Below the pieces are notes generated by a model. That model searched no databases and had not been told where the DNA came from. It was given only the letters and a program-made list of their open reading frames with translations. This document shows positions 13,388-61,354 of a stretch of DNA of 64,000 nucleotides, piece after piece. A program made the position numbers and the translations under genes. Every line of letters starts with the position of its first letter. Within the stretch, counting starts at the first letter, position 1. The stretch is from a virus (Duplodnaviria; Heunggongvirae; Uroviricota; Caudoviricetes): IMG/VR virus record IMGVR_UViG_3300028800_000066, positions 8,207 through 72,206 of that record, one strand, 5' to 3'.

Positions 13388-15133
13388 TTATCTTCTAAAT
13401 ATATTAGGGAACATTGGAGAATTAGTTGGACCACCAATGCGTGTTGGTTTACCTGAAAAACTTGATGTTACTATTTTTGGCAATCCCAAGTTCATTGATT
13501 GACCACCAAAATTTGGACCAAGGCCAGTTTCACCAAGCTGAACAACTGAGGCGATGTATGCATAATTCAAGCTATGCAAGGCGTCATTAGGTTCTTCATT
13601 TTTAAATTTTTCATAGCTCTTTAATATGTTGCCAGTTCTTTCTGAATACTTTAATTCCATATTACAAATCTGTTTGATGAACCAACTGACTTTTTCAGGT
13701 TCTCTAAATGGAATTATTAAATTACCTCGTTTGATAACTTCGACCAAATCTTCAATGAAAGAATTTCTATCGACGGACAACTGCCAAGTGTCGTTATCAT
13801 ATTTAAGTTTATTTTTAATATTGGTGGAGTAGAAGCAAGATTTTACCTTATTCTGCCAAGTCTTTTGTAGCTTCTGGCACTGTGGTCCACCAAATCCAAT
13901 GTCGGCAACAACTGACGAACAATTATATAATCTAATCATGTCCGATATATACTGAACTTGTTTTTCCCAATCTGGATTCATCAGTCTTTCTGTATTTTCT
14001 AATGTATATTGACCAGTAGCGCGGTCCTTGCTTAGGATGGTCATTACGGTGTAAGCGCCCTTGTCTTTAATATCATTTCTTCCACCCCAGTCAAGACCCA
14101 TGAAGGTTTGTTTTGGTGGCTGAACTGATTTGGAAAGAGACATGTTTCTATAAGGCTCAGCGCAACGATTGGCAACCTCTTCTTCGGTGAGCGGTCTTCC
14201 GGCTCCGGAATAGAATTCTCCGAGCACCTCGTTTTTGAATCTTTCTTCAGAGTATTCAATCTGTCTAAGATTGATTTGCTCTCTAGTGATTCTTGGAGAA
14301 AGAAGCTGAGATACATGGAAGCCCACACGCTCTGTACCAAACTTAGATGGAATCCACTTTCCGTCCTTCATGATAATGCGTTTGTCGCTCATCTTCTTAC
14401 ACTTGGGACATTCGACCATGAATCCAGTCTTAAAGTTATCTAATGTAATCTGAAAATAATGTGAACAAGAAGGACACTTTAAATGGAAATATCTTCTGTC
14501 AGATGACATCCACAAAGTATCAAATTTGGAACCCGCTAACTTTGGTGTACCAAATGAGAAATCAATTTTATAGTCAGAAGCATCAAGACATGAATTGGTG
14601 TTAGCAATAGCGTCTGAAGTCCAGTCCTGGAATTCATCTCTGGAAAGCATGTCGGCTGGAATACCACGCAAGGCGTCAGCCTGTCCCCATGCTGAGTAAA
14701 TATAATAATGATTTTCGTTTGCGAATTCGATGGACGATACCGTATCTGAACCAGTTTTGTTTTTCAACTTCTCAAGTTTCGGTATTCTATCAATTTTTTG
14801 ACTTGTTCTAATCGACTGTTGTAAACGGTCTTTCGAATAACGTGAAGCCTGTTCGCTTCTTGGAAAAGCGTGAAGAACTGTAAAGTCAGAATAATTCTTC
14901 AAGAAATATAATGATATGTTGAGGGCTGTTTCGGTCATTTCAACCTGACGGCCCTTACATATAACAATTGGCTTATGTTCAATCATCGAACCTATGCAAG
15001 CATATCTATACAAATCGACTAAGTATTCTCTGCCAGTACCGATGATTTTAAAATTCTTACCCTTTACTGTTCTATGTGTTTCAATAAAATAGATGGGGTC
15101 CAAATTAAGTGCTGTATCCAGTAAACTTTCCAT
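13388..15133 (-). CDS. terminase large subunit
   Basis: Walker-A-like CKGRQVEMTET. Large size. Adjacent to portal. Start moved to Met16 (GGAAGGG RBS). Confidence 0.7.
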   Translation of the reverse strand: MESLLDTALNLDPIYFIETHRTVKGKNFKIIGTGREYLVDLYRYACIGSMIEHKPIVICKGRQVEMTETALNISLYFLKNYSDFTVLHAFPRSEQASRYSKDRLQQSIRTSQKIDRIPKLEKLKNKTGSDTVSSIEFANENHYYIYSAWGQADALRGIPADMLSRDEFQDWTSDAIANTNSCLDASDYKIDFSFGTPKLAGSKFDTLWMSSDRRYFHLKCPSCSHYFQITLDNFKTGFMVECPKCKKMSDKRIIMKDGKWIPSKFGTERVGFHVSQLLSPRITREQINLRQIEYSEERFKNEVLGEFYSGAGRPLTEEEVANRCAEPYRNMSLSKSVQPPKQTFMGLDWGGRNDIKDKGAYTVMTILSKDRATGQYTLENTERLMNPDWEKQVQYISDMIRLYNCSSVVADIGFGGPQCQKLQKTWQNKVKSCFYSTNIKNKLKYDNDTWQLSVDRNSFIEDLVEVIKRGNLIIPFREPEKVSWFIKQICNMELKYSERTGNILKSYEKFKNEEPNDALHSLNYAYIASVVQLGETGLGPNFGGQSMNLGLPKIVTSSFSGKPTRIGGPTNSPMFPNIFRR

Positions 15134-15411
15134 ATACCCTTCCAAATCTATACTGCGCCACACTATAGTTAGTAGCATGACGCAGTATAATTTATTCTGT
15201 CATACTCATTATAACAAATCAAATGTCAATTTGTTATATTATTTTGACATTAATTATTGATGCTTGTGGAACTGTAAAGCTCTCATTGCGGCATGGGCAT
15301 CACCACAAGAATCGTGATGACTTAAAACCTTTCCGCTATGACTATCTAAAACCACCCATTTTCCGCCGCGATTCTTAATAAATTCAGTCTCGTGGCATGG
15401 ACCATCAGCTT

Positions 15412-30995: not shown

Positions 30996-31010
30996 TATTT
31001 ACCTTAATTG

Positions 31011-31359
31011 TGGAGGCGGTGGGAATCGAACCCACGTCCAAACAACTTTCCAAATTCAATCTACGTGTGTGTTCGGTTTTGCAGTCCGACAACTGTATTC
31101 GTTTTGTCCGTTTCGTTTTCATCTTAGCAGGGCAGAGTTATAACTGTCAGACTAATAAACTCTTACACTGAGCATCCTAAAGCGGCTCTGAAATTCACAC
31201 CTATAGGAGTCGGTGGTCAGAGTAGTCGCTATTAAGCGGCTAGTAGTTCCATTTCTTCGGCATTTCAATTTGTCTGCAAAGGTTTTTAGAGGGCCTTCAC
31301 GACAACTCCCTCACACGCATGAATGTTGTACTGTTATCTGTCGAAACCAAGTCGCCCCC
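31011..31359 (-). ncRNA. ssrA: tmRNA (SsrA)
   Basis: 5' GGGGGCGACUUGGUUUCGACAG. 3' tRNA-like end GGACGUGGGUUCGAUUCCCACCGCCUCCA. Internal tag reading frame ...GCC GAA GAA AUG GAA CUA CUA GCC GCU UAA UAG (AEEMELLAA). Confidence 0.8.
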
Positions 31360-46748: not shown

Positions 46749-46761
46749 GTTATTACTTTCG

Positions 46762-46837
46762 TGACCTCCCTCGGATTCGAACCGAGACGTAAACTAGGTT
46801 TGAGCTAGTTCCCTCTACCAAATTGGGGTAGGAGGCC
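46762..46837 (-). tRNA. tRNA with anticodon CAA (Leu UUG) but type-I short variable arm
   Basis: ggcctcc|ta|ccc..ggg|a|actag-CTCAAAC-ctagt|ttacgt|ctcgg-ttcgaat-ccgag|ggaggtc|a. A73. Confidence 0.55.
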
Positions 46838-47359
46838 GTTAACGGTTTAATCCGGTTACATCACCGTAAGTTTTATAAATCACCGGAACTTATCCCAGTC
46901 ATTAATTCGTCCACTCGTCAGACTGGGAATTGAGAGTGAGACTATTCGGCTTAGTATTTTCGTCTAATTAAATACAAATTAATTGACGAACTAGCCAAAC
47001 TTTTTATCTTTTTTATACTGCCACCCACGGTCTGCGCCTTACGGAACTATCCTTTCGGACGTTTCGCAAACTACGTGGGTTAATTAATCGGCGGGATTTG
47101 GTTATCTCTGGTAGTGGAATACGGTCCACTAAGCACAGTTATCGGTCCTGCCCCTTGCGGGTTCTCGCCAAACTTAAATCCAAGTGTGGTGCGAACCTGT
47201 CTGCCATATCCGCTCACCTATTTTCGGGTTCTATCCCTTACCGCAGACTCGACTTGGATTTAATGCGCTTTCAGCCTTGCAGTTTTGTCTCTCGACAATA
47301 CCTCGGTCCATTCCATTTCGTAGATGAAATGAGGTTTCGACTTAGTGCTGAAACTTTAA
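46838..47359 (-). ncRNA. about 520-nt non-coding, highly structured element embedded in a tRNA operon (candidate large ncRNA)
   Basis: No ORF of 60 aa or more on either strand. Flanked directly by tRNAs. Long-range complements, e.g. UUAAAUCCAAGU...ACUUGGAUUUAA, GUCUGC...GCAGAC, GGUAAGGG, and two AGAACCCG motifs. Confidence 0.45.
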
Positions 47360-47562: not shown

Positions 47563-47595
47563 AAATTTGTCAAGCCCTTTTATCGTTTCATAATG

Positions 47596-47669
47596 TGAAC
47601 CAGATGGGACTCGAACCCATATAACTCCCTTACGTTATCCCGCTTCGGAGGCGAGAACGGTACTGGTCC
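47596..47669 (-). pseudogene. tRNA-like element (74 nt) without a D-arm; possible tRNA pseudogene or tRNA mimic
   Basis: Good acceptor ggaccag/ctggttc and T-arm atggg-ttcgagt-cccat. The internal region folds as ctcgc-CTCCGAA-gcggg (anticodon-like CCG) enclosed by cgtt/aacg, so there is no room for a D-arm. Confidence 0.35.
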
Positions 47670-47670
47670 A

Positions 47671-47826
47671 TCACTTTTTCTTTCTAGCTTCTTTCAATCT
47701 CTTTTTTCTATCTTCGATTGCTTCTTGTAATTTCTTAGCGAATTCATCATTTCTTGGTCTGTTTCTGGATTCTGGTCTTACATTGATTTCACTTGGAATT
47801 GGTTTAATTGGCTCAATTTTATCCAT
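47671..47826 (-). CDS. small Lys/Arg-rich ORF (51 aa)
   Basis: MDKIEPIKPIPSEINVRPESRNRPRNDEFAKKLQEAIEDRKKRLKEARKKK. Immediately downstream of the kinase gene. Confidence 0.35.
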   Translation of the reverse strand: MDKIEPIKPIPSEINVRPESRNRPRNDEFAKKLQEAIEDRKKRLKEARKKK

Positions 47827-50169: not shown

Positions 50170-50556
50170 TTACCAATCCAATGTTCCAGCATTAACACAG
50201 GCTACACCAAAAACAGCGCCAACAGCTACATCCAATAACTCTGCCTTGAAATGAGTTTTGTCGTTTTTATGTAAAGCTTCCATCATTTCACGATGTTCTT
50301 CATCTACTACACCAGCGATTTCGTGAGTTGAAGCAAATGTTCCATAACCTTTTTGTTTAAGTCTACGATTAAGTTCTAATCTGAATTCCATAACAGCTTG
50401 TTCAATTTGTTCTTGCGTAATTTCCAGTCTAGCATTAGCCATTTGTTCTCCACGCGCAGGAACTTCCATGTCCGAATCCAGTCCCGCCATAAGGGCATCA
50501 ATTTCGCTCTGACTTAATATATCGTCCACTCTATGCTCTGAGAAGATTTCGCTCAA
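50170..50556 (-). CDS. MazG-like all-alpha NTP pyrophosphohydrolase (putative)
   Basis: ASTHEIAGVVDEEHREMMEAL...ELLDVAVGAVF acidic helix pattern. Confidence 0.45.
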   Translation of the reverse strand: MSEIFSEHRVDDILSQSEIDALMAGLDSDMEVPARGEQMANARLEITQEQIEQAVMEFRLELNRRLKQKGYGTFASTHEIAGVVDEEHREMMEALHKNDKTHFKAELLDVAVGAVFGVACVNAGTLDW

Positions 50557-51550
50557 CGGCTTGACCGTGCATCCAATGTTTCACGGTCTGGATGTGATTC
50601 TTTCTCACATATTTAGCCGCAGACTTTCTAAAATCACCGTATGAAAACTTGTCAGCAATTCTGATTACATATCCTTCTTTGCTCTGCCAATTTTCTTTGT
50701 TGTACAAAGCTTTAATTTTTGTCTCATCATAGATTCCATCATACAAAACTGGAACGCTTTGGATGTTCAAAAGATTAAACCAAGAAGCCGTATCATCCCA
50801 ATCCAGGCATTCGTTCTTTTCATTCCAAACCGAGAATCCCATGAAATAGGTGGGGAGATTATCGTAGCCAATTGAGTGTTTGGCCCAAAGATTCTCACCG
50901 CAGACTCTCCAACCTTCGGGGATATCGTTAGCGATTGCCGCCCAAAAGTTCTTTACCCAATTTCTAGAAACATGAGTGTCACTGTTTATACTTCTTGCAT
51001 GGATGTGGTCACGATACATTGTCGTGTTTTCTCCATCCATTTTTTCTGTAACAATAACTCTTTTACCTTCAAAACTTTTCATGTTCTCAATCATGCGGTC
51101 ATCATCGTTCATGTTTTCCGACCAAGGAACATGGTATGTTCTAGGATATTTTACATAACTGGTAAACTGTCCGAGAACATCAGCTAAAATCTTTTGGACG
51201 CTCAAATCGTAAAACAACTCACCTTTAAGTCTTTGACCATTGGGAAGAATAATGTTTCCCCATTTATCGTAAGTCTGGTCGTGATAGAAATGTTCTGGAA
51301 GAACTGGTTTAGTAATTCCGCACTTCTCACGAACTTGTTCCACAGAAATATTGGTCTTTTCACATTCAATGTGATGTTCTTCGCAAACCGAAGCGCCATT
51401 GTTTAGAAAATAACCGCCATTTCCCCAAATCCTACGTTCAATTATATGGTGTGCATCTGCCGCTGGTTCTCCACAAAATACGCACTTATGACCATCTCTT
51501 TTGAAGACGCCCTCACGGAATTCATCACGAGTGAGCAATTTGGATTCCAT
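50531..51550 (-). CDS. HNH nuclease fused to ATP-dependent RNA ligase-like nucleotidyltransferase
   Basis: N-terminal CVFCGEPAADAHHII...CEEHH. Ligase motif I TEKMDGEN (KxDGxN), motif IV EGYVIR, motif V AAKYVRK. Confidence 0.55.
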   Translation of the reverse strand: MESKLLTRDEFREGVFKRDGHKCVFCGEPAADAHHIIERRIWGNGGYFLNNGASVCEEHHIECEKTNISVEQVREKCGITKPVLPEHFYHDQTYDKWGNIILPNGQRLKGELFYDLSVQKILADVLGQFTSYVKYPRTYHVPWSENMNDDDRMIENMKSFEGKRVIVTEKMDGENTTMYRDHIHARSINSDTHVSRNWVKNFWAAIANDIPEGWRVCGENLWAKHSIGYDNLPTYFMGFSVWNEKNECLDWDDTASWFNLLNIQSVPVLYDGIYDETKIKALYNKENWQSKEGYVIRIADKFSYGDFRKSAAKYVRKNHIQTVKHWMHGQAVERNLLRA

Positions 51551-51553
51551 GAT

Positions 51554-52024
51554 TTAATCCACACTATCAAGATTTGACTTAGGAGCTAATGCTATCTGTT
51601 GGGCGACAGGCTCGACCATTGTTTGTTTTCCGGCCACATTGTCTCTAACCACTCTGCTAGCACTACGCTTCTGTTGAAAATATTGAACATCTGGTACACT
51701 TTTTTCCAATATGTTCTTGAGATAAATAATCCAATAACCTTTTCTGTAAACATTATAATGAGTTTTAGAGTTAAGTTCATTATCTCTATATCTGTTATAG
51801 ACTCGAATATTTTCCGTCCCAGTCTTTACGAAGATTTCGTAATTATAATCATCGTTGTCTTTATGTTCAAAATCAACAATTATATAAGCATCTTCGTAAG
51901 TTAAATTTGTTCCTCTTGGAGATGAATTGACGTTCAAAAGATTTAAGATATCATCCTTAATGCTTTCCGGTCCTACGAGAAAGACCCTGAATTTTGTCAA
52001 CAAATTCCTAAACCAATTCAACAT
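51554..52024 (-). CDS. hypothetical protein adjacent to RNA ligase
   Basis: ORF. Confidence 0.45.
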   Translation of the reverse strand: MLNWFRNLLTKFRVFLVGPESIKDDILNLLNVNSSPRGTNLTYEDAYIIVDFEHKDNDDYNYEIFVKTGTENIRVYNRYRDNELNSKTHYNVYRKGYWIIYLKNILEKSVPDVQYFQQKRSASRVVRDNVAGKQTMVEPVAQQIALAPKSNLDSVD

Positions 52025-52026
52025 CT

Positions 52027-52308
52027 TTAATCCAGAGAATCAAGTGACTTTCTCTTGCCCCAGTTGCTACTGACAAATGTTCGATATTCTGGTGTTTCTT
52101 CTATAATTTGAAATTCTGTATGATTGATGGAGACTATTCTGGCCGAGCCGCCAATTACAGCATTTATTTCTTTTAGACTTAGCGCGTGTCCGAAACCAGC
52201 TTGGACTAATCTTGCGGCCTGAGCGTGATTGCCCGCTTCATACAATTCTCTGGCTGTATTTGTTATAAATTCGCCAGAGATTGAAAAACCCATTGTGAGT
52301 TTTTGCAC
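52027..52308 (-). CDS. hypothetical protein
   Basis: ORF. Confidence 0.4.
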   Translation of the reverse strand: MQKLTMGFSISGEFITNTARELYEAGNHAQAARLVQAGFGHALSLKEINAVIGGSARIVSINHTEFQIIEETPEYRTFVSSNWGKRKSLDSLD

Positions 52309-52321
52309 ACTTACCTCGGAT

Positions 52322-52396
52322 TGGCTCCGAAACTAGGACTCGAACCTAGAACCTCGGTGTTAACAGCACCTTGCTCCACCATTGAGCTATTTCGGA
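52322..52396 (-). tRNA. tRNA-Asn (GTT), CCA encoded
   Basis: Loop CTGTTAA. Confidence 0.8.
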
Positions 52397-52403
52397 ATGC
52401 AAC

Positions 52404-52763
52404 TTACCTAATGCGCTTACCCGTATTCTTTTCAACTCTTACTGCTCTATCATCCCACAATTCAATTAAACCGTGGTCTTTTATATTAGTCACTTCCAAT
52501 TTCTGACCAATATGTTTCTCGCACCAATCTTCAATTCTCTTTCTAATTTCAGAAATACTTTCTTCGTTTCTAGCTGGTTCGGCAACTCTAGCCGTAAAAA
52601 TCTTTACGGTTTTTCCAGAAGCCAGCCAAAGTTTAACTCGTCTCACCATAGCTGGAATTGGCTCACCAATTTCTTTTTTATAACCTTCATAGTAAGCGAG
52701 TGTCCCGTCTAAATCAACACCATACCAACCTTGTTTACGCTCTACCATTATCAAATCCCTCAT
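52404..52763 (-). CDS. HAD-family phosphatase (polynucleotide 3'-phosphatase-like)
   Basis: GVDLDGTLA (DxDGT motif I). KIFTAR (motif II region). 119 aa. Confidence 0.55.
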   Translation of the reverse strand: MRDLIMVERKQGWYGVDLDGTLAYYEGYKKEIGEPIPAMVRRVKLWLASGKTVKIFTARVAEPARNEESISEIRKRIEDWCEKHIGQKLEVTNIKDHGLIELWDDRAVRVEKNTGKRIR

Positions 52764-52935
52764 ATATACAGTCGTAATTATTTTCTATATAACTTTTAGT
52801 TACTTTAATATTGTCTAACATTGTGTCGCCGTGATAAATCATAACTTGAGCTTCATCGCCACAATCTTCAATCACAGTCAATATGCATTTTTCAAATGTT
52901 CTGCTTTTCCATTTAGCATTGAATCCGAAACGCAT
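52735..52935 (-). CDS. hypothetical small protein
   Basis: ORF overlapping the phosphatase 5' end. Confidence 0.3.
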   Translation of the reverse strand: MRFGFNAKWKSRTFEKCILTVIEDCGDEAQVMIYHGDTMLDNIKVTKSYIENNYDCIYEGFDNGRA

Positions 52936-52957
52936 TTCTATCCTTGAGTTAAATTTG

Positions 52958-53029
52958 CTGGCTCTCTAAGAATCGAACTTAGACTCATTCGGGTAACAAC
53001 CGAAGGTTTTACCATTAAACTAAGAGCCA
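52958..53029 (-). tRNA. tRNA-Asn (GTT), second copy
   Basis: Loop TTGTTAC. Confidence 0.7.
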
Positions 53030-53143
53030 ATGATGCCGACTTTCATATCTTAGACGGCAAGCCAGCATTATAACTCAGTAAGCCTACGCTCACATTGTAT
53101 CTGGTCTTTAATTTTTAAAGATTGTACTGTATTATGAAACTGT

Positions 53144-53217
53144 TGGCTCCCGACCAAGGAATCGAACCTCAATTCTGGCATTAACAGTGCCGCGTCCTAC
53201 CATTGAACGAGTCGGAA
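53144..53217 (-). tRNA. tRNA-Asn (GTT), third copy, CCA encoded
   Basis: Loop CTGTTAA. Body differs from copies 1 and 2. Confidence 0.65.
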
Positions 53218-53244
53218 ATGCTTACTACTTCTACATTACAACTG

Positions 53245-53273
53245 ATTATATCACATTTCGCTCTATTTGTCAA
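53245..53273 (-). promoter_or_regulatory. consensus sigma70 promoter P3 (TTGACA-17-TGaTATAAT) for Asn tRNA array
   Basis: rc: ggcTTGACAaatagagcgaaatgTGaTATAATcag. Confidence 0.75.
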
Positions 53274-53281
53274 GCCAAAAG

Positions 53282-53318
53282 AAAACCCCTCCGAACTTTT
53301 TTTAAGGTCCGGAGGGGT
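53282..53318 (-). terminator. rho-independent terminator abutting promoter P3
   Basis: CCCCUCCG-GACCUUAAAAAAAGUU-CGGAGGGG followed by UUUUCUUUUGG. The U-tail overlaps the -35 of P3. Confidence 0.7.
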
Positions 53319-53492
53319 TAATTTAGTGGTTGATGATTGCAGTTTAAACCATTAAACTAGACCCTCTTAGACAATAGATTTCTATTACCCAACCAGAGGT
53401 TAGATATTGTTCGTCCATTGGTTAAAGAGGTTAAAGTCTTCATGATTAAACCTTCCGTCTATTTGTGTAGACAAAGTAGTGCATCTACTTCA
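53319..53492 (-). ncRNA. candidate about 200-nt small transcript between ext -10 promoter and terminator (sRNA or 32-aa micro-ORF)
   Basis: Bounded by the TGaTATAAT element (53498-53506) and the terminator 53282-53318. Contains hairpins GUAG-AUGCA-CUAC and AGGUUUAA...UUUAACCU. Also a possible 32-aa ORF with GGAAGG RBS. Confidence 0.35.
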
Positions 53493-53497
53493 TTACT

Positions 53498-53526
53498 ATT
53501 ATATCAAAAATTATAAAATTTTACCA
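53498..53526 (-). promoter_or_regulatory. candidate extended -10 promoter (TGaTATAAT)
   Basis: rc: TGGTAA-17-TGaTATAAT downstream of ORF 53544..53927. Weak -35. Confidence 0.4.
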
Positions 53527-53543
53527 CTTTTTAATACAAATTT

Positions 53544-53927
53544 TTATTCAAAATCTGACAATGGCATATTGAATTTTGACGAGCAAAAGCTGTTTGCGGC
53601 CTGGACTGAATTATTATATTCCAACAGTAAATCAGGTGGTTGAATGTCTTTTAATTCAGAAACAACGCGCTTATAAATATCTGAAGCTAGTCTATCTCTT
53701 TCCGCAAGTATTCCGCGTAACATTGTAGCTTCGCCACGAAGATTATCGAACTCTGGATAATATTTTTCTTTAACAATTCTCAAATTATCAGAGTGTTCAT
53801 CTTCCAATTTTTTCCTAGCATCTACATAAACTTCGATAATTTTCTCTTTTTCCTGTTCATAAAGCTTGTCAGCTTCCTTTTGTTTCTTATCTAATTCCTG
53901 AAGCTTTTTAGAAGTCGGAAACATCAT
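53544..53927 (-). CDS. hypothetical coiled-coil protein
   Basis: ORF. Confidence 0.45.
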   Translation of the reverse strand: MMFPTSKKLQELDKKQKEADKLYEQEKEKIIEVYVDARKKLEDEHSDNLRIVKEKYYPEFDNLRGEATMLRGILAERDRLASDIYKRVVSELKDIQPPDLLLEYNNSVQAANSFCSSKFNMPLSDFE

Positions 53928-54017
53928 TTTTTATCCTAAGAAAAGAAAACAACCTATTCAAGTTTTCAGTTGTTTGAGTGGCACTGCGAAGCTTACGTCT
54001 TGAACCACTGACTTATA

Positions 54018-55721
54018 TTAACCCTTGATGAAGTCACTCATCACGGCTGGGGCAGATGAATCGAATCCTACCACGTCTAACATTCCAGCATCGTTAGGGT
54101 CTGCAATCGTGAAATCATTCGTAACCATACCAACCACAACTGACTTGGCATTGTTACTAGACTGCTTGCGATATTCTGCAAGAGCCTGATGTGGGTGAAT
54201 TCTTCCAGCATAAGTCTCGTTATCGGTGTAGACAAAGAAAGCATCTACATCTAACTTATTCTGCTTTGCATAAACCATCGGCAAAGAGCAATCAGTTCCA
54301 CGGAAAGGAAGATTATTGATGACTGAGATTACATCATCCAATCTCTTCTTTCCAGAAATGTTCAAGTCAATGAACTCTGTCGAGAATCCCTTGATATAGA
54401 CGTTCTTCTCAACCTTTGCAGTAACCATTGCCATAGCCGCGCTTACCACTCTTGGCGTAAGACCTGGAATACCAGAAATTGAACCGCCGTCCATTGAACC
54501 AGACACGTCCAAGGCCAACATGATGTTCTTTCCAGTTGGCTCAACATTATCAAATGCTGTGTAGAAAGCAGAATCCAATGCGTCCACAACTGTCTGGACC
54601 GGAGTCCAGGAATTTCCACCACGCTCACCGTGACCCTGCTGATAAACCTTCAAGGCCGACAATAACTGAATCGGATGCACTCTCGCCTTCTTCAAAGCCT
54701 CTACATTAGCAAGCTTTTCAGCGACAAGCTTTGAACCCTGTGAAAGCGGTGCAATCAATCCAACTCTTGTCATTGTTGCAATATTACGAATCATTGCAGT
54801 CAATGGCATGTGCGGAAGTAATGCATCCCACACTTCAATGGTGTTAAGTAACTCTGTAGGAACAGCTTCACGAGGAAGTTCGTGTTCTCTAATCAATCCA
54901 ACAATTTCAGAAGCAGTCGTTGCCCTCTGAGCCTGTTCGAAAGCATTAATCATCGGGTGGATATTGACGATAAGCTTTCCTTCATTGTCATAGTGCGACT
55001 TTACCCATGACTGAATCTGCTCGTGCTTCTCGGAATACTTCACCTTTGCCGAATCGTTCTTGGCAGAGACAGGGGCATCCTTACCAGCCTTATACTTATT
55101 CCACGCAACCCACTGATAGATATCATTACGTGCGGCATCAGCGGTCTTCAAGTGAGCAAGACGCAACGCATCACGATGTTCAAAACCTTCACGATTACGA
55201 TACTTAATAACCTGTAATGCAAGGCCATCCAAGTTCTTCTCGTTATACCAACGCTGAACTGCCTTACGCAATCCAGTACCAGTTCCCTTGCCAATGGTGT
55301 CCGCAATCGACAAGAACTGGAACAAATGTGTGGCGATTCTGCATACCTTTGAAAGGTTCTGATATGCATACGCACGAGTAGCCGCATCACCATGCTTTAC
55401 GACAAGCGCAAGAGCAAACACAGCGGGGTCATTCTTTGGAGCGCGACCATTGTGAGAAATTTCCACAATAGTATCAACAGTCTTGCGACCATTTTCCTTC
55501 ACGCACTCCAAGATGCACTTCGCACTGTCCTGTGTCATCTTGTGCTCGGATGCATAATACGAGCCACCCTCGTTTCCAAGAATCAAGAAACGGTTTAAAC
55601 GGGTCCAGTTGTCTACCTTGAATGTAAAGCCACCCGCGCTGTTTGGAACCTGATTGCTTCCGAATACCTTCTCGGACTGGGGTGTAACCTTAGTTGAAAC
55701 GTGCGAAGCATAGTTTGACAT
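54018..55721 (-). CDS. vWA-domain protein with Ro60/TROVE-like architecture (Rsr-like, inferred)
   Basis: C-terminal vWA MIDAS LALDVSGSMDG...T...D. About 400-aa helical N-terminal module. 567 aa matches the Ro60 size and domain order. GGAAGAGGAG RBS. Own consensus promoter. Confidence 0.5.
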   Translation of the reverse strand: MSNYASHVSTKVTPQSEKVFGSNQVPNSAGGFTFKVDNWTRLNRFLILGNEGGSYYASEHKMTQDSAKCILECVKENGRKTVDTIVEISHNGRAPKNDPAVFALALVVKHGDAATRAYAYQNLSKVCRIATHLFQFLSIADTIGKGTGTGLRKAVQRWYNEKNLDGLALQVIKYRNREGFEHRDALRLAHLKTADAARNDIYQWVAWNKYKAGKDAPVSAKNDSAKVKYSEKHEQIQSWVKSHYDNEGKLIVNIHPMINAFEQAQRATTASEIVGLIREHELPREAVPTELLNTIEVWDALLPHMPLTAMIRNIATMTRVGLIAPLSQGSKLVAEKLANVEALKKARVHPIQLLSALKVYQQGHGERGGNSWTPVQTVVDALDSAFYTAFDNVEPTGKNIMLALDVSGSMDGGSISGIPGLTPRVVSAAMAMVTAKVEKNVYIKGFSTEFIDLNISGKKRLDDVISVINNLPFRGTDCSLPMVYAKQNKLDVDAFFVYTDNETYAGRIHPHQALAEYRKQSSNNAKSVVVGMVTNDFTIADPNDAGMLDVVGFDSSAPAVMSDFIKG

Positions 55722-55788
55722 GGTGTTCTCCTCTTCCCTTTACGGGGGTTATAAGATTAATGCAAGTCGTCCCACAACGACTAAGAGC

Positions 55789-55817
55789 ATTATATCCTTT
55801 TTAATCTAATTTATCAA
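55789..55817 (-). promoter_or_regulatory. sigma70 promoter P6 (TTGATA-17-TATAAT) for the Ro60-like gene
   Basis: rc: TTGATAaattagattaaaaaggaTATAAT. A 5'-UTR hairpin GUCGU-UGUGGG-ACGAC follows. Confidence 0.65.
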
Positions 55818-56502
55818 GAACTTTTTGCGATTTGTTTTCAATTACTGGTTCTGTTAATTCATTTGATTTTACATCATTTTTAATTTCTGTAACGGGGTCT
55901 CCAATTGGTTCTGGAACAGTTGGAGTTTGCGTCACGATACTTATTCCAGATACGCTTGTACTAGCACTATCTCTTCTGATTCTTGCTAAAAACTCTTGAT
56001 ATGTTTCTGACAGTGATTCTGATGGTCTTACAGCAGAAACTACTGGACCAGGAGGCGGCGGTGGAGGTGTAGGTTCTGGAACTCTTAGCAACCTATTTAA
56101 TCTTTCTCGCGCTCTCTCTTCGTCCCTAGTTAAAACATTTCTAGCTTCTCTAACTTTTTGCTGATATTCTCTAATAACTTCTTGATATCTAGTTTCTAAT
56201 TGATTCAACAATTCGGTATCAGTAAGTCTTCTATATCTGATTTTGAATGTGTCATTAGAAATCTCATCGCTATTGCGGCTAGAATCTGTATAATCAAGAA
56301 TATCACCACCATACGTTCTTCCAGGTATATGGTCTGAAATATTCTGAATTTGTTCTACCGTTCTAACTCTAGGTCCGTCATAATTAACAGGATTTTTTAC
56401 TACTCTACAATATTCGAAACGATTATTTACATTATAAAACCAACGACCAATCTTTGGCTTATTACTATTTCTAGTTAAGAAGTTCCACAATCCCATATTC
56501 AA
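55801..56502 (-). CDS. hypothetical protein with poly-Pro segment
   Basis: EPTPPPPPPGPV. Confidence 0.5.
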   Translation of the reverse strand: MNMGLWNFLTRNSNKPKIGRWFYNVNNRFEYCRVVKNPVNYDGPRVRTVEQIQNISDHIPGRTYGGDILDYTDSSRNSDEISNDTFKIRYRRLTDTELLNQLETRYQEVIREYQQKVREARNVLTRDEERARERLNRLLRVPEPTPPPPPPGPVVSAVRPSESLSETYQEFLARIRRDSASTSVSGISIVTQTPTVPEPIGDPVTEIKNDVKSNELTEPVIENKSQKVLDKLD

Positions 56503-56519
56503 ACCTGAGAATTATTTTG

Positions 56520-56591
56520 TCGGGATAGCTGGATTTGAACCAGCGGCCCCCTGCTCCCAAAGCAGGTGCGCTACCCCTGCGCCATATCCCG
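56520..56591 (-). tRNA. tRNA-Pro (TGG)
   Basis: Loop TTTGGGA. Confidence 0.8.
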
Positions 56592-56610
56592 ATAGGTAAT
56601 TTAATTTTTG

Positions 56611-56683
56611 TGGAGCAGAGGGGAGTCGAACCCCTGACCCCTTACATGCCATGCAAGTGCTCTGCCAACTGAGCTACTGCCCC
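56611..56683 (-). tRNA. tRNA-Ala (GGC)
   Basis: Loop ATGGCAT. G3:U70 wobble in the acceptor stem (Ala identity element). Confidence 0.8.
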
Positions 56684-56845
56684 ATTATATCTACTGATAT
56701 TTCGTAAACCTTCCAAACATCTTTGCCATGTTGCTTATTTAAATCTTCACATTTATTTTTAGCTTCATCTATATCAAAAAACATTTTATCATCGTATGAC
56801 TTTGTTAACTTTGGTTTGTTGGCAACTATCCAAGCCTGAAACACA

Positions 56846-57043
56846 TTAGCCTCTATTGTTTATATAATCTTTAAATGCTTGTATGCCTAAAATGACAATA
56901 ACCAACATTACAGAACCACTAATCGTGAGTAGAAACCAATTCCCAAGACTTAAAAATAACAAAACTTTAGGTAATGATACAATATATAAAATCATTCCAA
57001 GAGCTACAAAAAATCCAATCAATCGAACAATATCATTTTTCAT
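56846..57043 (-). CDS. small membrane protein
   Basis: Two TM helices. Confidence 0.4.
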   Translation of the reverse strand: MKNDIVRLIGFFVALGMILYIVSLPKVLLFLSLGNWFLLTISGSVMLVIVILGIQAFKDYINNRG

Positions 57044-57182
57044 AAATCATCCGAGATGAATTCCGTTTTTTTATCCATAAAATCATGGAAGGGGCAAAAT
57101 TACGTCTAAACCCACTTTTAAGGAATAAGCTGACCAGTCATTTAAAGTTTAAAGCGGAACTGAACGACTAAAATAAACGCTG

Positions 57183-57255
57183 TGGAGCTTCGGGGATTCG
57201 AACCCCGCACATCTACCTTGCAAAGGTAGCACTCTACCAAATGAGTTAAAGCCCC
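57183..57255 (-). tRNA. tRNA-Ala (TGC)
   Basis: Loop TTTGCAA. G3:U70 present. Confidence 0.8.
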
Positions 57256-57256
57256 A

Positions 57257-57760
57257 TTATTTCTTTGAATCGTTTTCTCTTATCTGTTCAATCGTAAAAC
57301 CATTGTTTATATAAACAACAAAATCAATCTTATATGTATCTGAAACTCTATTCAAAATACCTTCAACAACATTCCAATTTCCTCCAGCTAATCCGCATCC
57401 AATCAATGGAAGAGCAAGAGTCTTTAGGCTCTTTGAAAGCATATCAAGACAAACACCTGACAGGCTTTTTTCTAAAGCTCCGTAATCTAAATCCATTCTT
57501 CCAACATTTCTTCCCCTATAATCAAACTGGGAATAAATATTGTATCCAAATTTTCCATCAGGCAATTGCAAGTAAGTATAAGCGCCCAATTTCTGCTGTG
57601 GAGTAAATGGACTTTTACAATCCGCAATTTCATACATCGCAGGCCATTTAGCTCTTACCGCTTTCGCAACACCACTACCCATTGTAGATTGGCAATTACA
57701 CCCGTGACCGAATGCATCTTCTGTGAAAGCAAGTAAATCACCAGTCTTATAAGTAATCAT
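57257..57760 (-). CDS. macro-domain protein (ADP-ribose binding/hydrolase-like)
   Basis: GDLLAFTEDAFGHGCNCQSTMGSGVAKAV and later IGCGLAGG resemble MacroD-type motifs (GD..x..DA..N..x..G.GV.. / G.G..G). Confidence 0.55.
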   Translation of the reverse strand: MITYKTGDLLAFTEDAFGHGCNCQSTMGSGVAKAVRAKWPAMYEIADCKSPFTPQQKLGAYTYLQLPDGKFGYNIYSQFDYRGRNVGRMDLDYGALEKSLSGVCLDMLSKSLKTLALPLIGCGLAGGNWNVVEGILNRVSDTYKIDFVVYINNGFTIEQIRENDSKK

Positions 57761-61072: not shown

Positions 61073-61354
61073 TTACTTAACGTTTGCGGCTTGGTCGCCC
61101 TTCTGACCCGCGACAATCTCAAACGTAACTTCCTGACCCTCTTTCAAGGTCTTAAAACCACTCGCCTGGATGGCAGAGAAGTGAACGAATACATCAGCCC
61201 TACCCTCACACTCGATAAAGCCGAAACCCTTCTTATCGTTGAACCACTTCACCTTGCCATTGTGTACATTAGCCATTACACTTACTCCTTCTTTTCTAGT
61301 AAAAATCTTTTTAGCGAAATGCCAAAAAGAAGTTGTTGCAGATTTTTCCTTCAC
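61073..61354 (-). CDS. cspA: cold-shock protein CspA family
   Basis: [30 protein letters not shown] (RNP1/RNP2 motifs). Confidence 0.9.

What the first reader, a model, noticed from the sequence alone, without database searches (positions are those of the whole stretch)
54018..55721. Ro60/Rsr-like (TROVE plus vWA) protein with its own strong promoter, inside an RNA island
The C-terminal MIDAS motif (DxSGSMDG) is clear. Size and helical N-terminal module match Ro60 orthologues. Bacterial Rsr works with Y RNAs (tRNA-like ncRNAs) and is often encoded next to RNA ligase RtcB. Here the neighbours are RNA ligase, phosphatase, many tRNAs and unexplained structured RNAs, which argues that the Ro-Y RNA module was co-opted.
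Basis: partly seen in the sequence, partly recalled or inferred. Interest (0 to 1): 0.7.

Follow-up and report, generated by a model that had tools for sequence, protein, structure and literature searches.

The report
Jumbo-phage Ro60 with novel partner RNA
A giant phage encodes a genuine Ro60/Rsr RNA-quality-control protein (already known in phages), and directly behind the gene lies a previously undescribed, evolutionarily conserved two-hairpin "kissing" RNA that may be its Y-RNA-like partner.

Summary
The ORF at 54018-55721 (minus strand, 567 aa) is a real Ro60/Rsr orthologue. It has TROVE and Ro60-type vWA domains, an intact MIDAS motif, a ring fold (TM 0.86-0.91 to human Ro60) and conserved RNA-contact residues. 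Its promoter is conserved in relatives. It sits in a jumbo-phage island with 41 tRNAs, a tmRNA, an ATP-dependent RNA ligase, a PNK/phosphatase-like protein and a macro-domain protein. Phage Ro60 is already known: about 360 annotated phages, jumbo phages noted in 2021, and phiLo Ro60 with its Y-like RNAs solved in 2025.

- 53220-53543 is a small protein gene (28 codons) with its own promoter and terminator.
- 47596-47680 is an atypical tRNA-Arg.
- 46838-47359 is an unexplained structured region.
- No YrlA-type RNA is present, and the positive control works.

The 77 nt right after the rsr stop codon (54014-53938) form a conserved RNA. Two hairpins are joined by a 7-bp loop-loop helix, and 18 of 20 pairs show compensatory changes across 12 copies. 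It occurs only directly 3' of rsr, in 10 related phage contigs, in one or two copies. I read it as a non-canonical Y-RNA analogue (about 0.5). The main rival is a cis-acting 3'-end element of the rsr mRNA.

The parts
55789..55817 (-). rsr promoter, TTGATA-17-TATAAT
   Evidence: 11 of 12 consensus positions. The equivalent TTGAxA-17-TATAAT is conserved in 9 of 12 clade loci.
55722..55788 (-). rsr 5' UTR. It has a conserved stem-loop (55781-55766, GUGGG loop) and a second small hairpin (55748-55736) abutting the Shine-Dalgarno GAGGAG.
   Evidence: Alignment of 8 loci (A4). The loop is conserved and the stems differ between loci while staying complementary. Function unknown.
54018..55721 (-). rsr: Ro60/Rsr orthologue, 567 aa. 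TROVE ring (aa ~26-356) plus Ro60-type vWA with MIDAS (aa 400-565). Clade-specific helical-hairpin insertion at aa ~196-250.
   Evidence: Pfam PF05731 2.5e-43 and PF25045 1.6e-60. PDB Ro60 and Rsr at 1e-116 to 1e-122. AF2 pLDDT 84, Foldseek TM 0.86/0.91 to 9nep. K173, R177, H190 and D405/S407/S409 invariant.
53938..54014 (-). rsr-3' structured RNA module (candidate non-canonical Y-RNA analogue). P1 54009-54005 pairs with 53981-53977. The loop-loop (kissing) helix 54004-53998 pairs with 53963-53957. P3 53975-53968 pairs with 53954-53947. U-rich tail 53946-53938.
   Evidence: 12 aligned copies (13 identified) from 10 loci: 92% of cells paired, 18 of 20 pairs with changes on both sides, covariation 0.68 against 0.26 shuffled and at most 0.19 for slid registers. 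Own-loop versus other-loop permutation test 0 of 20,000. Covariance model finds one copy in the window and copies only directly 3' of rsr elsewhere. 12 G-U pairs fix the strand.
53544..53927 (-). Conserved hypothetical 127-aa ORF between the module and the small-ORF unit
   Evidence: ORF list. Syntenic 103-139-aa ORFs in L003, L004, L005, L008, L009, L145 and L147. No Pfam or PHROG match. Absent between rsr and the small-ORF unit in L007, L010 and L011.
53277..53506 (-). Extended -10 TGATATAAT at 53506-53498; 28-aa ORF at 53443..53357 (MKTLTSLTNGRTISNLWLGNRNLLSKRV); terminator hairpin 53317-53286 plus T-run.
   Evidence: Full-length conservation in 8 other loci. ORF open in all 9 with in-frame indels and synonymous changes. 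RNAalifold supports only the terminator.
53245..53273 (-). Perfect TTGACA-17-TATAAT promoter driving the tRNA-Asn genes (53217-53144 and 53029-52957)
   Evidence: 12 of 12 consensus positions with a TG extension. Invariant in all 9 aligned loci. tRNAs.

Best explanation
SHOWN. The gene encodes a bona fide Ro60/Rsr ring protein carried by a jumbo phage. It is transcribed from its own conserved sigma-70-type promoter, inside a tRNA / tmRNA / RNA-ligase / phosphatase island. The 77 nt that begin 4 nt after its stop codon (helix P1 from 9 nt) form a conserved RNA with two hairpins, P1 and P3. The first 7 nt of the P1 loop pair with the middle of the P3 loop, giving an intramolecular kissing helix. 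A U-rich tail follows. All three helices covary. The element occurs only at this position, once or twice in tandem, in the rsr clade with at least 65% identity.

INFERRED (about 0.5). This RNA is co-transcribed with rsr, as yrlB and yrlA are in the Salmonella rsr-yrlBA-rtcBA operon. It is the phage's Ro60 ligand, acting as a Y-RNA analogue. Stacking of P1 on the kissing helix would give a continuous 5' strand, RG-U-CC-RA (GGUCCGA in one copy). That strand would face a discontinuous strand, ..UYGG / RCC.., resembling the bulged GGUC[C]GA/UUGACC helix that Ro60 recognises. P3, then a Y-R-A-A-R bulge, then the kissing helix gives a stem-bulge-stem with a CGAA-like motif.

INFERRED FURTHER. By analogy with D. 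radiodurans and phage phiLo, the RNP would gate the Rsr cavity and couple Rsr to a host 3'-5' exoribonuclease such as PNPase. None was found among the large ORFs scanned in the window. During infection this would triage damaged or misfolded tRNA and rRNA alongside the phage tRNA-repair enzymes, or blunt host RNA decay.
For: Protein identity: Pfam, NCBIfam, PHROG and PDB hits. Ring fold at TM 0.86-0.91. Residues equivalent to Ro60 K170, R174 and H187, and the MIDAS motif, are invariant.

RNA element:
- It is conserved in 10 independent loci, with 13 copies.
- Covariation is strong in all three helices.
- G-U pairs fit only the rsr-sense strand.
- Unpaired nucleotides are invariant (A81, U91, A92; C63 in 11 of 12), which suggests specific recognition.
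- Linkage is exclusive: one copy in 64 kb, none elsewhere in 226 kb of related or unrelated rsr loci, none in IMG/VR, and only a chance hit in 596 Gb of genomes.
- Tandem short and long paralogues recall YrlA/YrlB and Yrl1/Yrl2.
- Y RNAs directly downstream of rsr in one operon have precedent.
- Same strand and within 4 kb is the rule for bacterial Y RNAs.

No canonical Y RNA is available instead, and the positive control works. Context: RNA ligase, PNK-like and macro-domain genes. Jumbo-phage TROVE proteins have been associated with RNA repair.
Against: - There are no binding or expression data.
- The canonical motifs are not conserved. GNCGAAN0-1G is absent from the window's copy (UGAAA at the equivalent place), and CGAAG appears in only 5 of 13 copies. 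GGUCCGA is exact in only one copy, and its 3' half simply covaries as a helix.
- There is no 5'/3' terminal stem and no tRNA-like domain.
- The position (3' UTR, ending in a hairpin plus U-run) is exactly where a terminator or mRNA-stabilising element would be, and exclusive linkage to rsr fits that reading equally well.
- The window's copy alone does not fold better than shuffles (z = 0.3-0.4).
- Three clade members (L007, L012, L146) lack the element right after rsr.
- The 12 aligned copies are related sequences, so shuffle statistics overstate independence.
Confidence: 0.5

Rival explanations
1. The rsr-3' element is a cis-acting 3'-end module of the rsr mRNA. It would be a structured terminator or exonuclease-resistant cap that sets rsr transcript stability or read-through into the next gene, and not a trans-acting Rsr ligand. 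Rsr itself is still a Ro60 orthologue.
For: It starts 4 nt after the stop codon (helix P1 from 9 nt), has no promoter of its own, and ends in a hairpin plus U-run. Linkage to rsr is what one expects of a gene's own 3' UTR. Canonical Y-RNA motifs are not conserved.
Against: P3 is A/U-rich with a 13-16-nt loop, and the terminator scan did not call it. A plain terminator needs neither a second hairpin, nor a covarying 7-bp loop-loop helix, nor invariant unpaired bases. Tandem duplication with divergent short and long paralogues is unusual for terminators. The neighbouring small-ORF unit ends in an ordinary GC-rich terminator.
Confidence: 0.3
2. The phage Rsr works without a dedicated phage-encoded partner RNA. 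It would bind host Y RNAs, phage tRNAs or tmRNA precursors, or misfolded RNAs directly through its cavity. The 3' element would have some unrelated role.
For: No canonical Y RNA or YrlA in the window. Three clade members lack the element next to rsr. Y-RNA-free Rsr acts in rRNA maturation in D. radiodurans. The cavity residue H190 is conserved.
Against: The Y-RNA-contact residues K173 and R177 are invariant. Almost every studied Ro60, including phage ones, has an adjacent partner RNA. A conserved structured RNA sits exactly where partner RNAs lie in Salmonella.
Confidence: 0.15
3. One reading: a structured RNA containing GACGAA and a D-arm-like hairpin.
For: It is on the same strand and within 500 nt of rsr, contains GACGAA, folds with z = -5.6, and is conserved in 8 other loci. 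AGACGA and UUGUCU are invariant and complementary.
Against: A 28-32-codon ORF (42 in L003, from an upstream in-frame ATG), with ATG and Shine-Dalgarno, is open in all 9 loci. All internal indels are 3 nt, and changes in the W-L-G-N..L-L-S core are synonymous, including CTA to TTA. No helix inside it covaries, and the covariation term is unfavourable. There is no YrlA hit. It has its own promoter and terminator, and its position tracks tRNA-Asn.
Confidence: 0.04

Closest known systems
Cellular Ro60/Rsr (X. laevis and human Ro60, PDB 1YVP, 9NEN, 9NEP; D. radiodurans Rsr, 2NVO)
   Same: Full-length homology at 37-39% identity (E 1e-116 to 1e-122). TROVE ring plus vWA/MIDAS. Residues equivalent to K170, R174 and H187 conserved. 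Fold TM 0.86-0.91.
   Different: Encoded by a phage. Carries a clade-specific, roughly 40-aa Lys-rich helical-hairpin insertion (aa ~196-250). Scores below NCBIfam's Rsr equivalog cut-off (519 against 900). Not next to RtcB.
Phage Ro60 homologues: cluster C mycobacteriophages (Bxz1, Rizal) and other actinophages, some jumbo phages, and Thermus phage phiLo Ro60 with Yrl1 and Yrl2
   Same: A phage-borne Ro60 gene with an adjacent, co-oriented structured RNA in one or two copies, in tRNA-rich genomes. The expected mechanism is a Ro60 / Y-like RNA / host PNPase complex.
   Different: At most 44% identity to any annotated phage Ro60, and 16% to phiLo. Rizal has a YrlA tRNA-like RNA upstream, and phiLo has stem-CGAA-bulge-stem RNAs upstream. 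Here the RNA is downstream and has two hairpins with a kissing helix and no conserved CGAA.
Salmonella rsr-yrlBA-rtcBA operon (YrlA and YrlB)
   Same: Partner RNAs lie immediately 3' of rsr and are co-transcribed, in two copies, in an RNA-repair context.
   Different: YrlA has a 5'/3' stem, GNCGAAN0-1G and a tRNA-like T/AS/D domain, and none of these is present here. The ligase here is ATP-dependent Rnl-type (PF09414), not RtcB.
Canonical Y-like hairpins next to a distant phage-type rsr (locus L138, 46% identity)
   Same: Same strand, directly downstream of rsr, in two copies.
   Different: The L138 hairpins fold as classical 5'-GGU[A]CGA...UUGACC-3' bulged stems. In the window's clade the equivalent helix could exist only as a composite of P1 and the kissing helix.

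Membership tests
Ro60/Rsr (TROVE plus vWA) | TROVE domain (PF05731) above Pfam's gathering score | tested here: met
   149.3 bits against a cut-off of 23, aa 26-356
Ro60/Rsr (TROVE plus vWA) | Ro60-type C-terminal vWA domain with a MIDAS motif (DxSxS) | tested here: met
   PF25045 204 bits, aa 400-565. DVSGSMDG at aa 405-412, with D405, S407 and S409 invariant in 17 sequences.
Ro60/Rsr (TROVE plus vWA) | Closed ring fold superposable on solved Ro60 structures | tested here: met
   AF2 pLDDT 84, pTM 0.82. Foldseek TM 0.86/0.91 to 9nep_A and 0.83/0.89 to 1yvp over about 560 columns.
Ro60/Rsr (TROVE plus vWA) | Conservation of the residues whose mutation abolishes Y-RNA binding (K170, R174) or cavity RNA binding (H187) in vertebrate Ro60. 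The residue roles come from my own knowledge of the literature. | tested here: met
   The HMMER alignment to human Ro60 maps them to K173, R177 and H190. All three are invariant in alignment A3.
Ro60/Rsr (TROVE plus vWA) | NCBIfam NF041674 'RNA-binding protein Rsr' equivalog cut-off | tested here: not met
   519 bits against a cut-off of 900, in two stretches split by the clade-specific insertion. It is a family member by Pfam and structure, but outside NCBI's strict bacterial equivalog.
Ro60/Rsr (TROVE plus vWA) | Binds Y RNA or misfolded RNA | not testable with these tools
   Needs EMSA or RIP-seq.
YrlA-type bacterial/phage Y RNA (Rfam RF02553) | Encoded within about 4 kb of rsr on the same strand | tested here: met
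   The module starts 4 nt after the rsr stop codon (helix P1 from 9 nt), on the same strand.
YrlA-type bacterial/phage Y RNA (Rfam RF02553) | tRNA-like domain (T, acceptor-like and D stem-loops) | tested here: not met
   No RF02553 hit at E<=10 over 51500-57500 or E<=5 over the whole window. The positive control, phage Rizal, gives 36 bits, E 1.7e-5.
YrlA-type bacterial/phage Y RNA (Rfam RF02553) | GNCGAAN0-1G motif near the 5' end | tested here: not met
   Absent from the window's module. The 5' strand consensus is RGUCCRA. CGAAG occurs at the P3/loop junction in 5 of 13 copies only.
Generic Y RNA (Ro-binding stem-bulge-stem formed by the 5' and 3' ends) | Terminal stem made by the RNA's 5' and 3' ends, carrying a bulged GGUCCGA/CGAA helix | tested here: inconclusive
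   There is no terminal 5'/3' stem. A composite helix (P1 stacked on the kissing helix) and a P3 / YRAAR / kissing-helix stem-bulge-stem would resemble it. The resemblance is an inference.
Intrinsic (Rho-independent) terminator | Short G+C-rich hairpin with a small loop, followed by a U-run | tested here: inconclusive
   A U-rich tail is present. However, P3 is A/U-rich with a 13-nt loop in this window (12-16 nt across copies), and the consensus scan did not call it. P1 and the kissing helix are not terminator features.

The most novel reading that the evidence does not exclude
The rsr-3' element is a new structural class of Ro60-associated RNA. It would be a Y-RNA analogue built from two hairpins locked by a loop-loop helix, with no tRNA-like domain and no terminal bulged stem. 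Its composite helix would imitate the Ro-binding site, and it would have co-evolved with a Ro60 clade carrying a Lys-rich helical insertion. That would show Ro60 recognises an RNA shape that very different topologies can produce. It would also show that jumbo phages have re-invented the partner RNA.
Probability: 0.4. Interest if true: 0.65.

Novelty: new variant of a known kind. Interest (0 to 1): 0.5.

Why it matters
Ro60/Y-RNA particles are conserved from bacteria to humans, where they are a lupus and Sjogren autoantigen, yet what defines a Y RNA is still debated. Phage Ro60 function during infection is essentially untested. The protein itself adds only another phage member.

The RNA is more useful. 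It is short and supported by covariation, it is strictly tied to rsr, and it lacks every canonical Y-RNA hallmark. That makes it a clean, testable case. If Rsr binds it, the recognition rules for Ro60 ligands widen, and homology searches for Y RNAs (Rfam YrlA or CGAA-based) are shown to miss whole classes. If Rsr does not bind it, it is an unusual pseudoknotted 3'-end element worth understanding for phage mRNA stability.

The analysis also removes three false Y-RNA candidates and identifies a conserved micro-protein gene that looked like a structured RNA.

Tried and rejected
1. Rfam Y_RNA and YrlA scans of the flanks and the whole window found nothing. The result was validated with a positive control.
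2. I first treated the 53218-53543 block as the Y RNA because of its promoter, terminator, z = -5.6 and GACGAA. I rejected that after the alignment showed codon-periodic variation and in-frame indels.
3. A scan for canonical stem-CGAA-stem elements in all non-coding gaps within 5 kb either side of rsr found none.
4. Other gaps (53030-53143, 57044-57181) are not conserved and fold unremarkably.
5. A loose DNA pattern for the module in IMG/VR gave 120 chance hits, none with rsr. A stricter pattern gave 0 hits in IMG/VR and one chance hit inside a Flavobacteriaceae ORF.
6. A megablast of the locus against known phages found no match.
7. I looked for a phage-encoded exoribonuclease partner among 10 large ORFs and found none; the set included a terminase, sigma factors and an SPFH protein. 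Smaller ORFs were not scanned.
8. The small peptide has no PHROG family.
9. The single-sequence folding energy of the module is not significant, so the case rests on comparative evidence only.
Full report
OBSERVATION. The window holds an ATG-initiated ORF of 567 aa at 54018..55721 on the minus strand. It lies in a dense RNA-gene region: 41 tRNA genes, all on the minus strand, and a tmRNA at 31008-31359. A large terminase at 13388-15178 shows the window is phage DNA. The nearest characterised relatives of the neighbouring RNA ligase are jumbo phages: Ralstonia RsoM2USA, Salicola SCTP-2 and the Caulobacter CcrBL9 group, at 61-64% identity. No known phage matches the locus at the DNA level. A promoter-like site, TTGATA-17-TATAAT (11 of 12), lies at 55817-55789. 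The equivalent TTGAxA-17-TATAAT is conserved in 9 of 12 related loci.

THE PROTEIN. Pfam gives TROVE (149 bits, cut-off 23) and the Ro60-type vWA domain (204 bits, cut-off 27.7). PHROG 850, 'RNA-binding protein', matches at 5e-87. Sequence search of the PDB gives human Ro60 at 2.5e-122, D. radiodurans Rsr at 3.6e-117 and Xenopus Ro60 at 3.9e-116, over the full length in two segments. An AlphaFold2 model (pLDDT 84, pTM 0.82) superposes on Ro60 structures over about 560 columns, with TM 0.86/0.91 to 9nep and 0.83/0.89 to 1yvp. The only solved phage Ro60, phiLo, is much more distant at 16% identity.

In a 17-sequence alignment the MIDAS residues D405, S407 and S409 are invariant. So are K173, R177 and H190. 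The alignment to human Ro60 maps these three to K170, R174 and H187. From my own knowledge of the Ro60 literature, K170 and R174 are the Y-RNA-contact residues and H187 is a cavity residue used in mutants.

Two departures are worth noting. First, a clade-specific, Lys-rich insertion of about 40 aa is predicted as a helical hairpin (H196-212 and H223-243). Second, the score is below NCBIfam's strict Rsr equivalog cut-off, 519 against 900.

IS PHAGE Ro60 NEW? No. tblastn finds Ro-like proteins in 360 phage records. Most are actinophages, with a few from Agrobacterium, Sinorhizobium, Vibrio and Escherichia phages, and all are at most 44% identical to this one. Chen et al. 2014 reported YrlA-like RNAs next to Ro in 22 phages. 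Iyer et al. 2021 noted TROVE proteins in a subset of jumbo phages as part of RNA-repair systems. The Thermus phage phiLo Ro60 was solved in 2025 with two adjacent Y-like RNAs and shown to form a complex with host PNPase.

The protein database shows this gene belongs to a tight clade, P0001-P0014 at 63-100% identity. Below that, identity falls to about 53% for general bacterial Ro60s. The clade's contigs are all tRNA-rich and phage-like, with Cpn10/Cpn60, thioredoxin, macro, CoaE, R2K and RNA-ligase genes.

CONTEXT.
- RNA ligase PF09414 at 50531-51550. This is an ATP-dependent Rnl-type ligase with HNH-like N-terminal hits, not RtcB.
- A 119-aa HAD-like, polynucleotide-kinase/phosphatase-like protein at 52404-52763.
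- A macro-domain protein at 57257-57760.
- CoaE and a sigma factor.

(a) 53220-53543. I first took this for an sRNA. It has an extended -10 (TGATATAAT, 53506-53498), about 210 nt that fold with z = -5.6, a GACGAA motif, and a clear terminator (53317-53286 plus a T-run). It is followed by a perfect TTGACA-17-TATAAT promoter (53273-53245) for tRNA-Asn. The block is conserved full-length in 8 related loci. The alignment (A1), however, shows invariant positions with a three-base period (TGG TT. GG. AA.) and internal indels of exactly 3 nt.

Reading from the conserved ATG gives an ORF in all 9 loci, preceded by a Shine-Dalgarno sequence, with the core N-R-R-T..W-L-G-N-x-N-L-L-S. It is 28-32 codons in 8 of the 9 loci; the first in-frame ATG in L003 gives 42, and L003 also has the conserved ATG. 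Changes in the core are synonymous (TTG/TTA, GGT/GGG, AAT/AAC, CTA/TTA). GACGAA is the pair of codons AGA-CGA. RNAalifold finds covariation only in the terminator, and the one helix inside the ORF never varies. I conclude it is a small protein gene, not a Y RNA. A residual puzzle is that AGA-CGA-ACA and CUA-UUG-UCU are invariant at synonymous sites and are mutually complementary.

(b) 47596-47680 is an 86-nt atypical tRNA-Arg(CCG). It scores 32 bits on Rfam's tRNA model, above the gathering score of 29. Relatives carry a normal 73-75-nt tRNA-Arg(CCG) in the same neighbourhood.

(c) 46838-47359 is 522 nt and folds with z = -4.15. It has no Rfam match and no similarity in known phages beyond the flanking tRNA. 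It is unexplained, and nothing marks it as a Y RNA.

No Y_RNA or YrlA hit appears in the window at permissive thresholds or in 20 related loci. This negative result is meaningful because the same scan finds the YrlA tRNA-like domain about 190 nt upstream of the Ro gene of mycobacteriophage Rizal (36 bits, E 1.7e-5). A custom scan found no stem-CGAA-stem candidate in any non-coding gap within 5 kb of rsr.

WHAT IS THERE INSTEAD. I compared the short intergenic region right after the rsr stop codon across loci. It holds a shared module, present once or twice in tandem. The window's copy is 54014-53938, 77 nt. There are 13 copies in 10 independent loci.

Its anatomy is as follows:
- P1, 5-6 bp (54009-54005 pairing with 53981-53977), closes a variable loop.
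- The first 7 nt of that loop (54004-53998, UUCAAGA) pair with the centre of the loop of the second hairpin.
- That second hairpin is P3 (53975-53968 pairing with 53954-53947), and the pairing partner in its loop is 53963-53957.
- A U-rich tail follows.

The loop-loop pairing changes in a compensatory way between copies: UUCAAG/CUUGAA, UCCAAGA/UCUUGGA, UCCGAA/UUCGGA, UCUAG/CUAGA, UCUUUA/UAAAGA, CCAAUA/UAUUGG and others, 11 distinct combinations in all. Each 5' segment pairs better with its own loop than with other copies' loops. The summed score is 78 against 57 +/- 3.5 for permuted assignments, and 0 of 20,000 permutations reach it.

On a 12-copy MAFFT alignment (A2) the three-helix structure gives:
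- 92% of cells paired, against 71% in shuffles;
- 18 of 20 pairs with changes on both sides;
- a covariation score of 0.68, against 0.26 shuffled and at most 0.19 for every slid register;
- support for each helix on its own.

Twelve G-U pairs place the structure on the rsr-sense RNA strand. Several unpaired positions are invariant: A81, U91 and A92, with C63 in 11 of 12.

A covariance model built from P1 and P3 finds exactly one copy in the 64-kb window. Elsewhere it finds copies only directly 3' of rsr. It finds none in loci whose Rsr is at most 63% identical, nor in L007 (75% identical), nor in unrelated Ro60 loci. The P3 motif occurs once in the window. A specific pattern finds nothing in IMG/VR, and only a chance match inside an ORF in 596 Gb of species-representative genomes.

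There are caveats. The copies are related sequences, so the shuffle statistics overstate independence. The window's copy alone does not fold better than shuffles. One member, L147, lacks an obvious P1.

HOW IT MOST LIKELY WORKS.
Shown: a Ro60 orthologue with conserved RNA-contact residues, and a structurally constrained RNA co-transcribed at its 3' end.

Inferred, at about 0.5: the RNA is the Ro60 ligand of this clade. The reasons are:
- Y RNAs are normally encoded on the same strand within 4 kb of rsr.
- In Salmonella two of them lie immediately downstream of rsr in the same operon.
- Partner RNAs often come in pairs, such as YrlA/YrlB and Yrl1/Yrl2. This module likewise occurs as tandem short and long paralogues.
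- No canonical Y RNA exists here.
- The conserved loop-loop helix and invariant unpaired bases go beyond what a terminator needs.

Structurally, stacking P1 on the kissing helix would give a continuous 5' strand RG-U-CC-RA (exactly GGUCCGA in L004). It would lie opposite ..UYGG + RCC.., which recalls the bulged GGUC[C]GA/UUGACC helix recognised by Ro60. That canonical helix is seen in the hairpins next to a distant rsr in L138. P3, then a Y-R-A-A-R bulge (CGAAG in 5 of 13 copies), then the kissing helix gives a stem-bulge-stem like that described for phiLo Yrls. These resemblances are inference, not tests.

Downstream function is by analogy. The RNP would gate the Rsr cavity and tether Rsr to a host exoribonuclease such as PNPase. 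None was found among the large ORFs of the window that I scanned. The role would be to triage damaged or misfolded tRNA and rRNA alongside the phage ligase and phosphatase, or to damp host RNA decay as proposed for phiLo.

The main rival, at about 0.3, is a cis-acting terminator or stability cap of the rsr mRNA. Position, the U-tail and the lack of canonical motifs fit it equally well.

NOVELTY AND VERDICT. The protein is a new member of a known kind (phage Ro60). The idea of a phage-borne Ro plus RNA module in an RNA-repair setting is already published. What appears new is the RNA: a covariation-supported, rsr-locked, two-hairpin kissing structure. It fails the tested defining features of YrlA-type Y RNAs (tRNA-like domain and GNCGAA motif absent) and has no terminal stem. 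Its fit to the generic stem-bulge-stem is inconclusive. I therefore rate the finding as a new variant of a known kind, with interest 0.5. The most novel reading is that this is a new structural class of Ro60 ligand (probability about 0.4), which direct binding assays could test.

Noticed in passing
window 53277-53506 (-): A conserved micro-protein gene with its own promoter and terminator, encoding 28 aa (MKTLTSLTNGRTISNLWLGNRNLLSKRV). The peptide is Asn-rich, and the gene always sits immediately upstream of the tRNA-Asn genes. Codons AGA-CGA-ACA and CUA-UUG-UCU are invariant even at synonymous sites and are mutually complementary. No PHROG match.
   Followed up: yes
window 46838-47359 (-): A 522-nt non-coding, relatively GC-rich region between tRNA-Arg(tct) and a doubtful tRNA-Leu call. 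It folds with z = -4.15, has no Rfam family, and has no similarity in known phages. It may be a large structured RNA. ARAGORN's tRNA-Leu(caa) at 46761-46837 is not confirmed by Rfam, so the structured region may extend into it.
   Followed up: partly
window 47595-47680 (-): An atypical 86-nt tRNA-Arg(CCG) with a poor D-arm and a long extra arm, scoring only 32 bits on Rfam's tRNA model. Related phages carry a normal 73-75-nt tRNA-Arg(CCG).
   Followed up: partly
window 55722-55788 (-): The rsr 5' UTR carries a conserved stem-loop (55781-55766) with a GUGGG loop. Its stems differ between relatives but stay complementary. A second small hairpin (55748-55736) abuts the ribosome-binding site. This may be a translational or stability control element.
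   Followed up: partly
L138 ~1850-2100 (downstream of a 46%-identical rsr): Two canonical Y-RNA-like hairpins (5'-GGU[A]CGA...UUGACC-3') flank a tRNA-like segment that ARAGORN does not call. Rfam's gathering-threshold scan reported no Y-RNA family in this locus; only that threshold was run here.
   Followed up: partly
L003 4424-4506, L004 8673-8757, L007 2682-2764, L008 3250-3336, L010 2988-3081, L011 7342-7432, L012 7868-7955; L146 ~2100-2750: Related phages carry unusually long (82-94 nt) tRNA-Asn(GUU) genes right after the small-ORF unit. In L146 the 800-nt gap after rsr holds a promoter and a structured RNA with duplicated tRNA-Asn-like halves, which may be an intron-containing tRNA.
   Followed up: no
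window 31008-31359 (-) and 61122-61195 (-): A phage-encoded tmRNA (117 bits). Also a partial match to the cspA thermoregulator (51 bits, below the gathering score of 78), inside the 93-aa minus-strand ORF 61073..61354 (its product was not scanned); a relative encodes a cold-shock-domain protein in this neighbourhood (L009).
   Followed up: no
window 54018-55721 (-), aa ~196-250: A clade-specific, Lys-rich insertion of about 40 aa in the Ro60 ring, predicted as a helical hairpin. It is absent from bacterial and eukaryotic Ro60, and could be an added RNA-contact surface matching the unusual RNA.
   Followed up: partly
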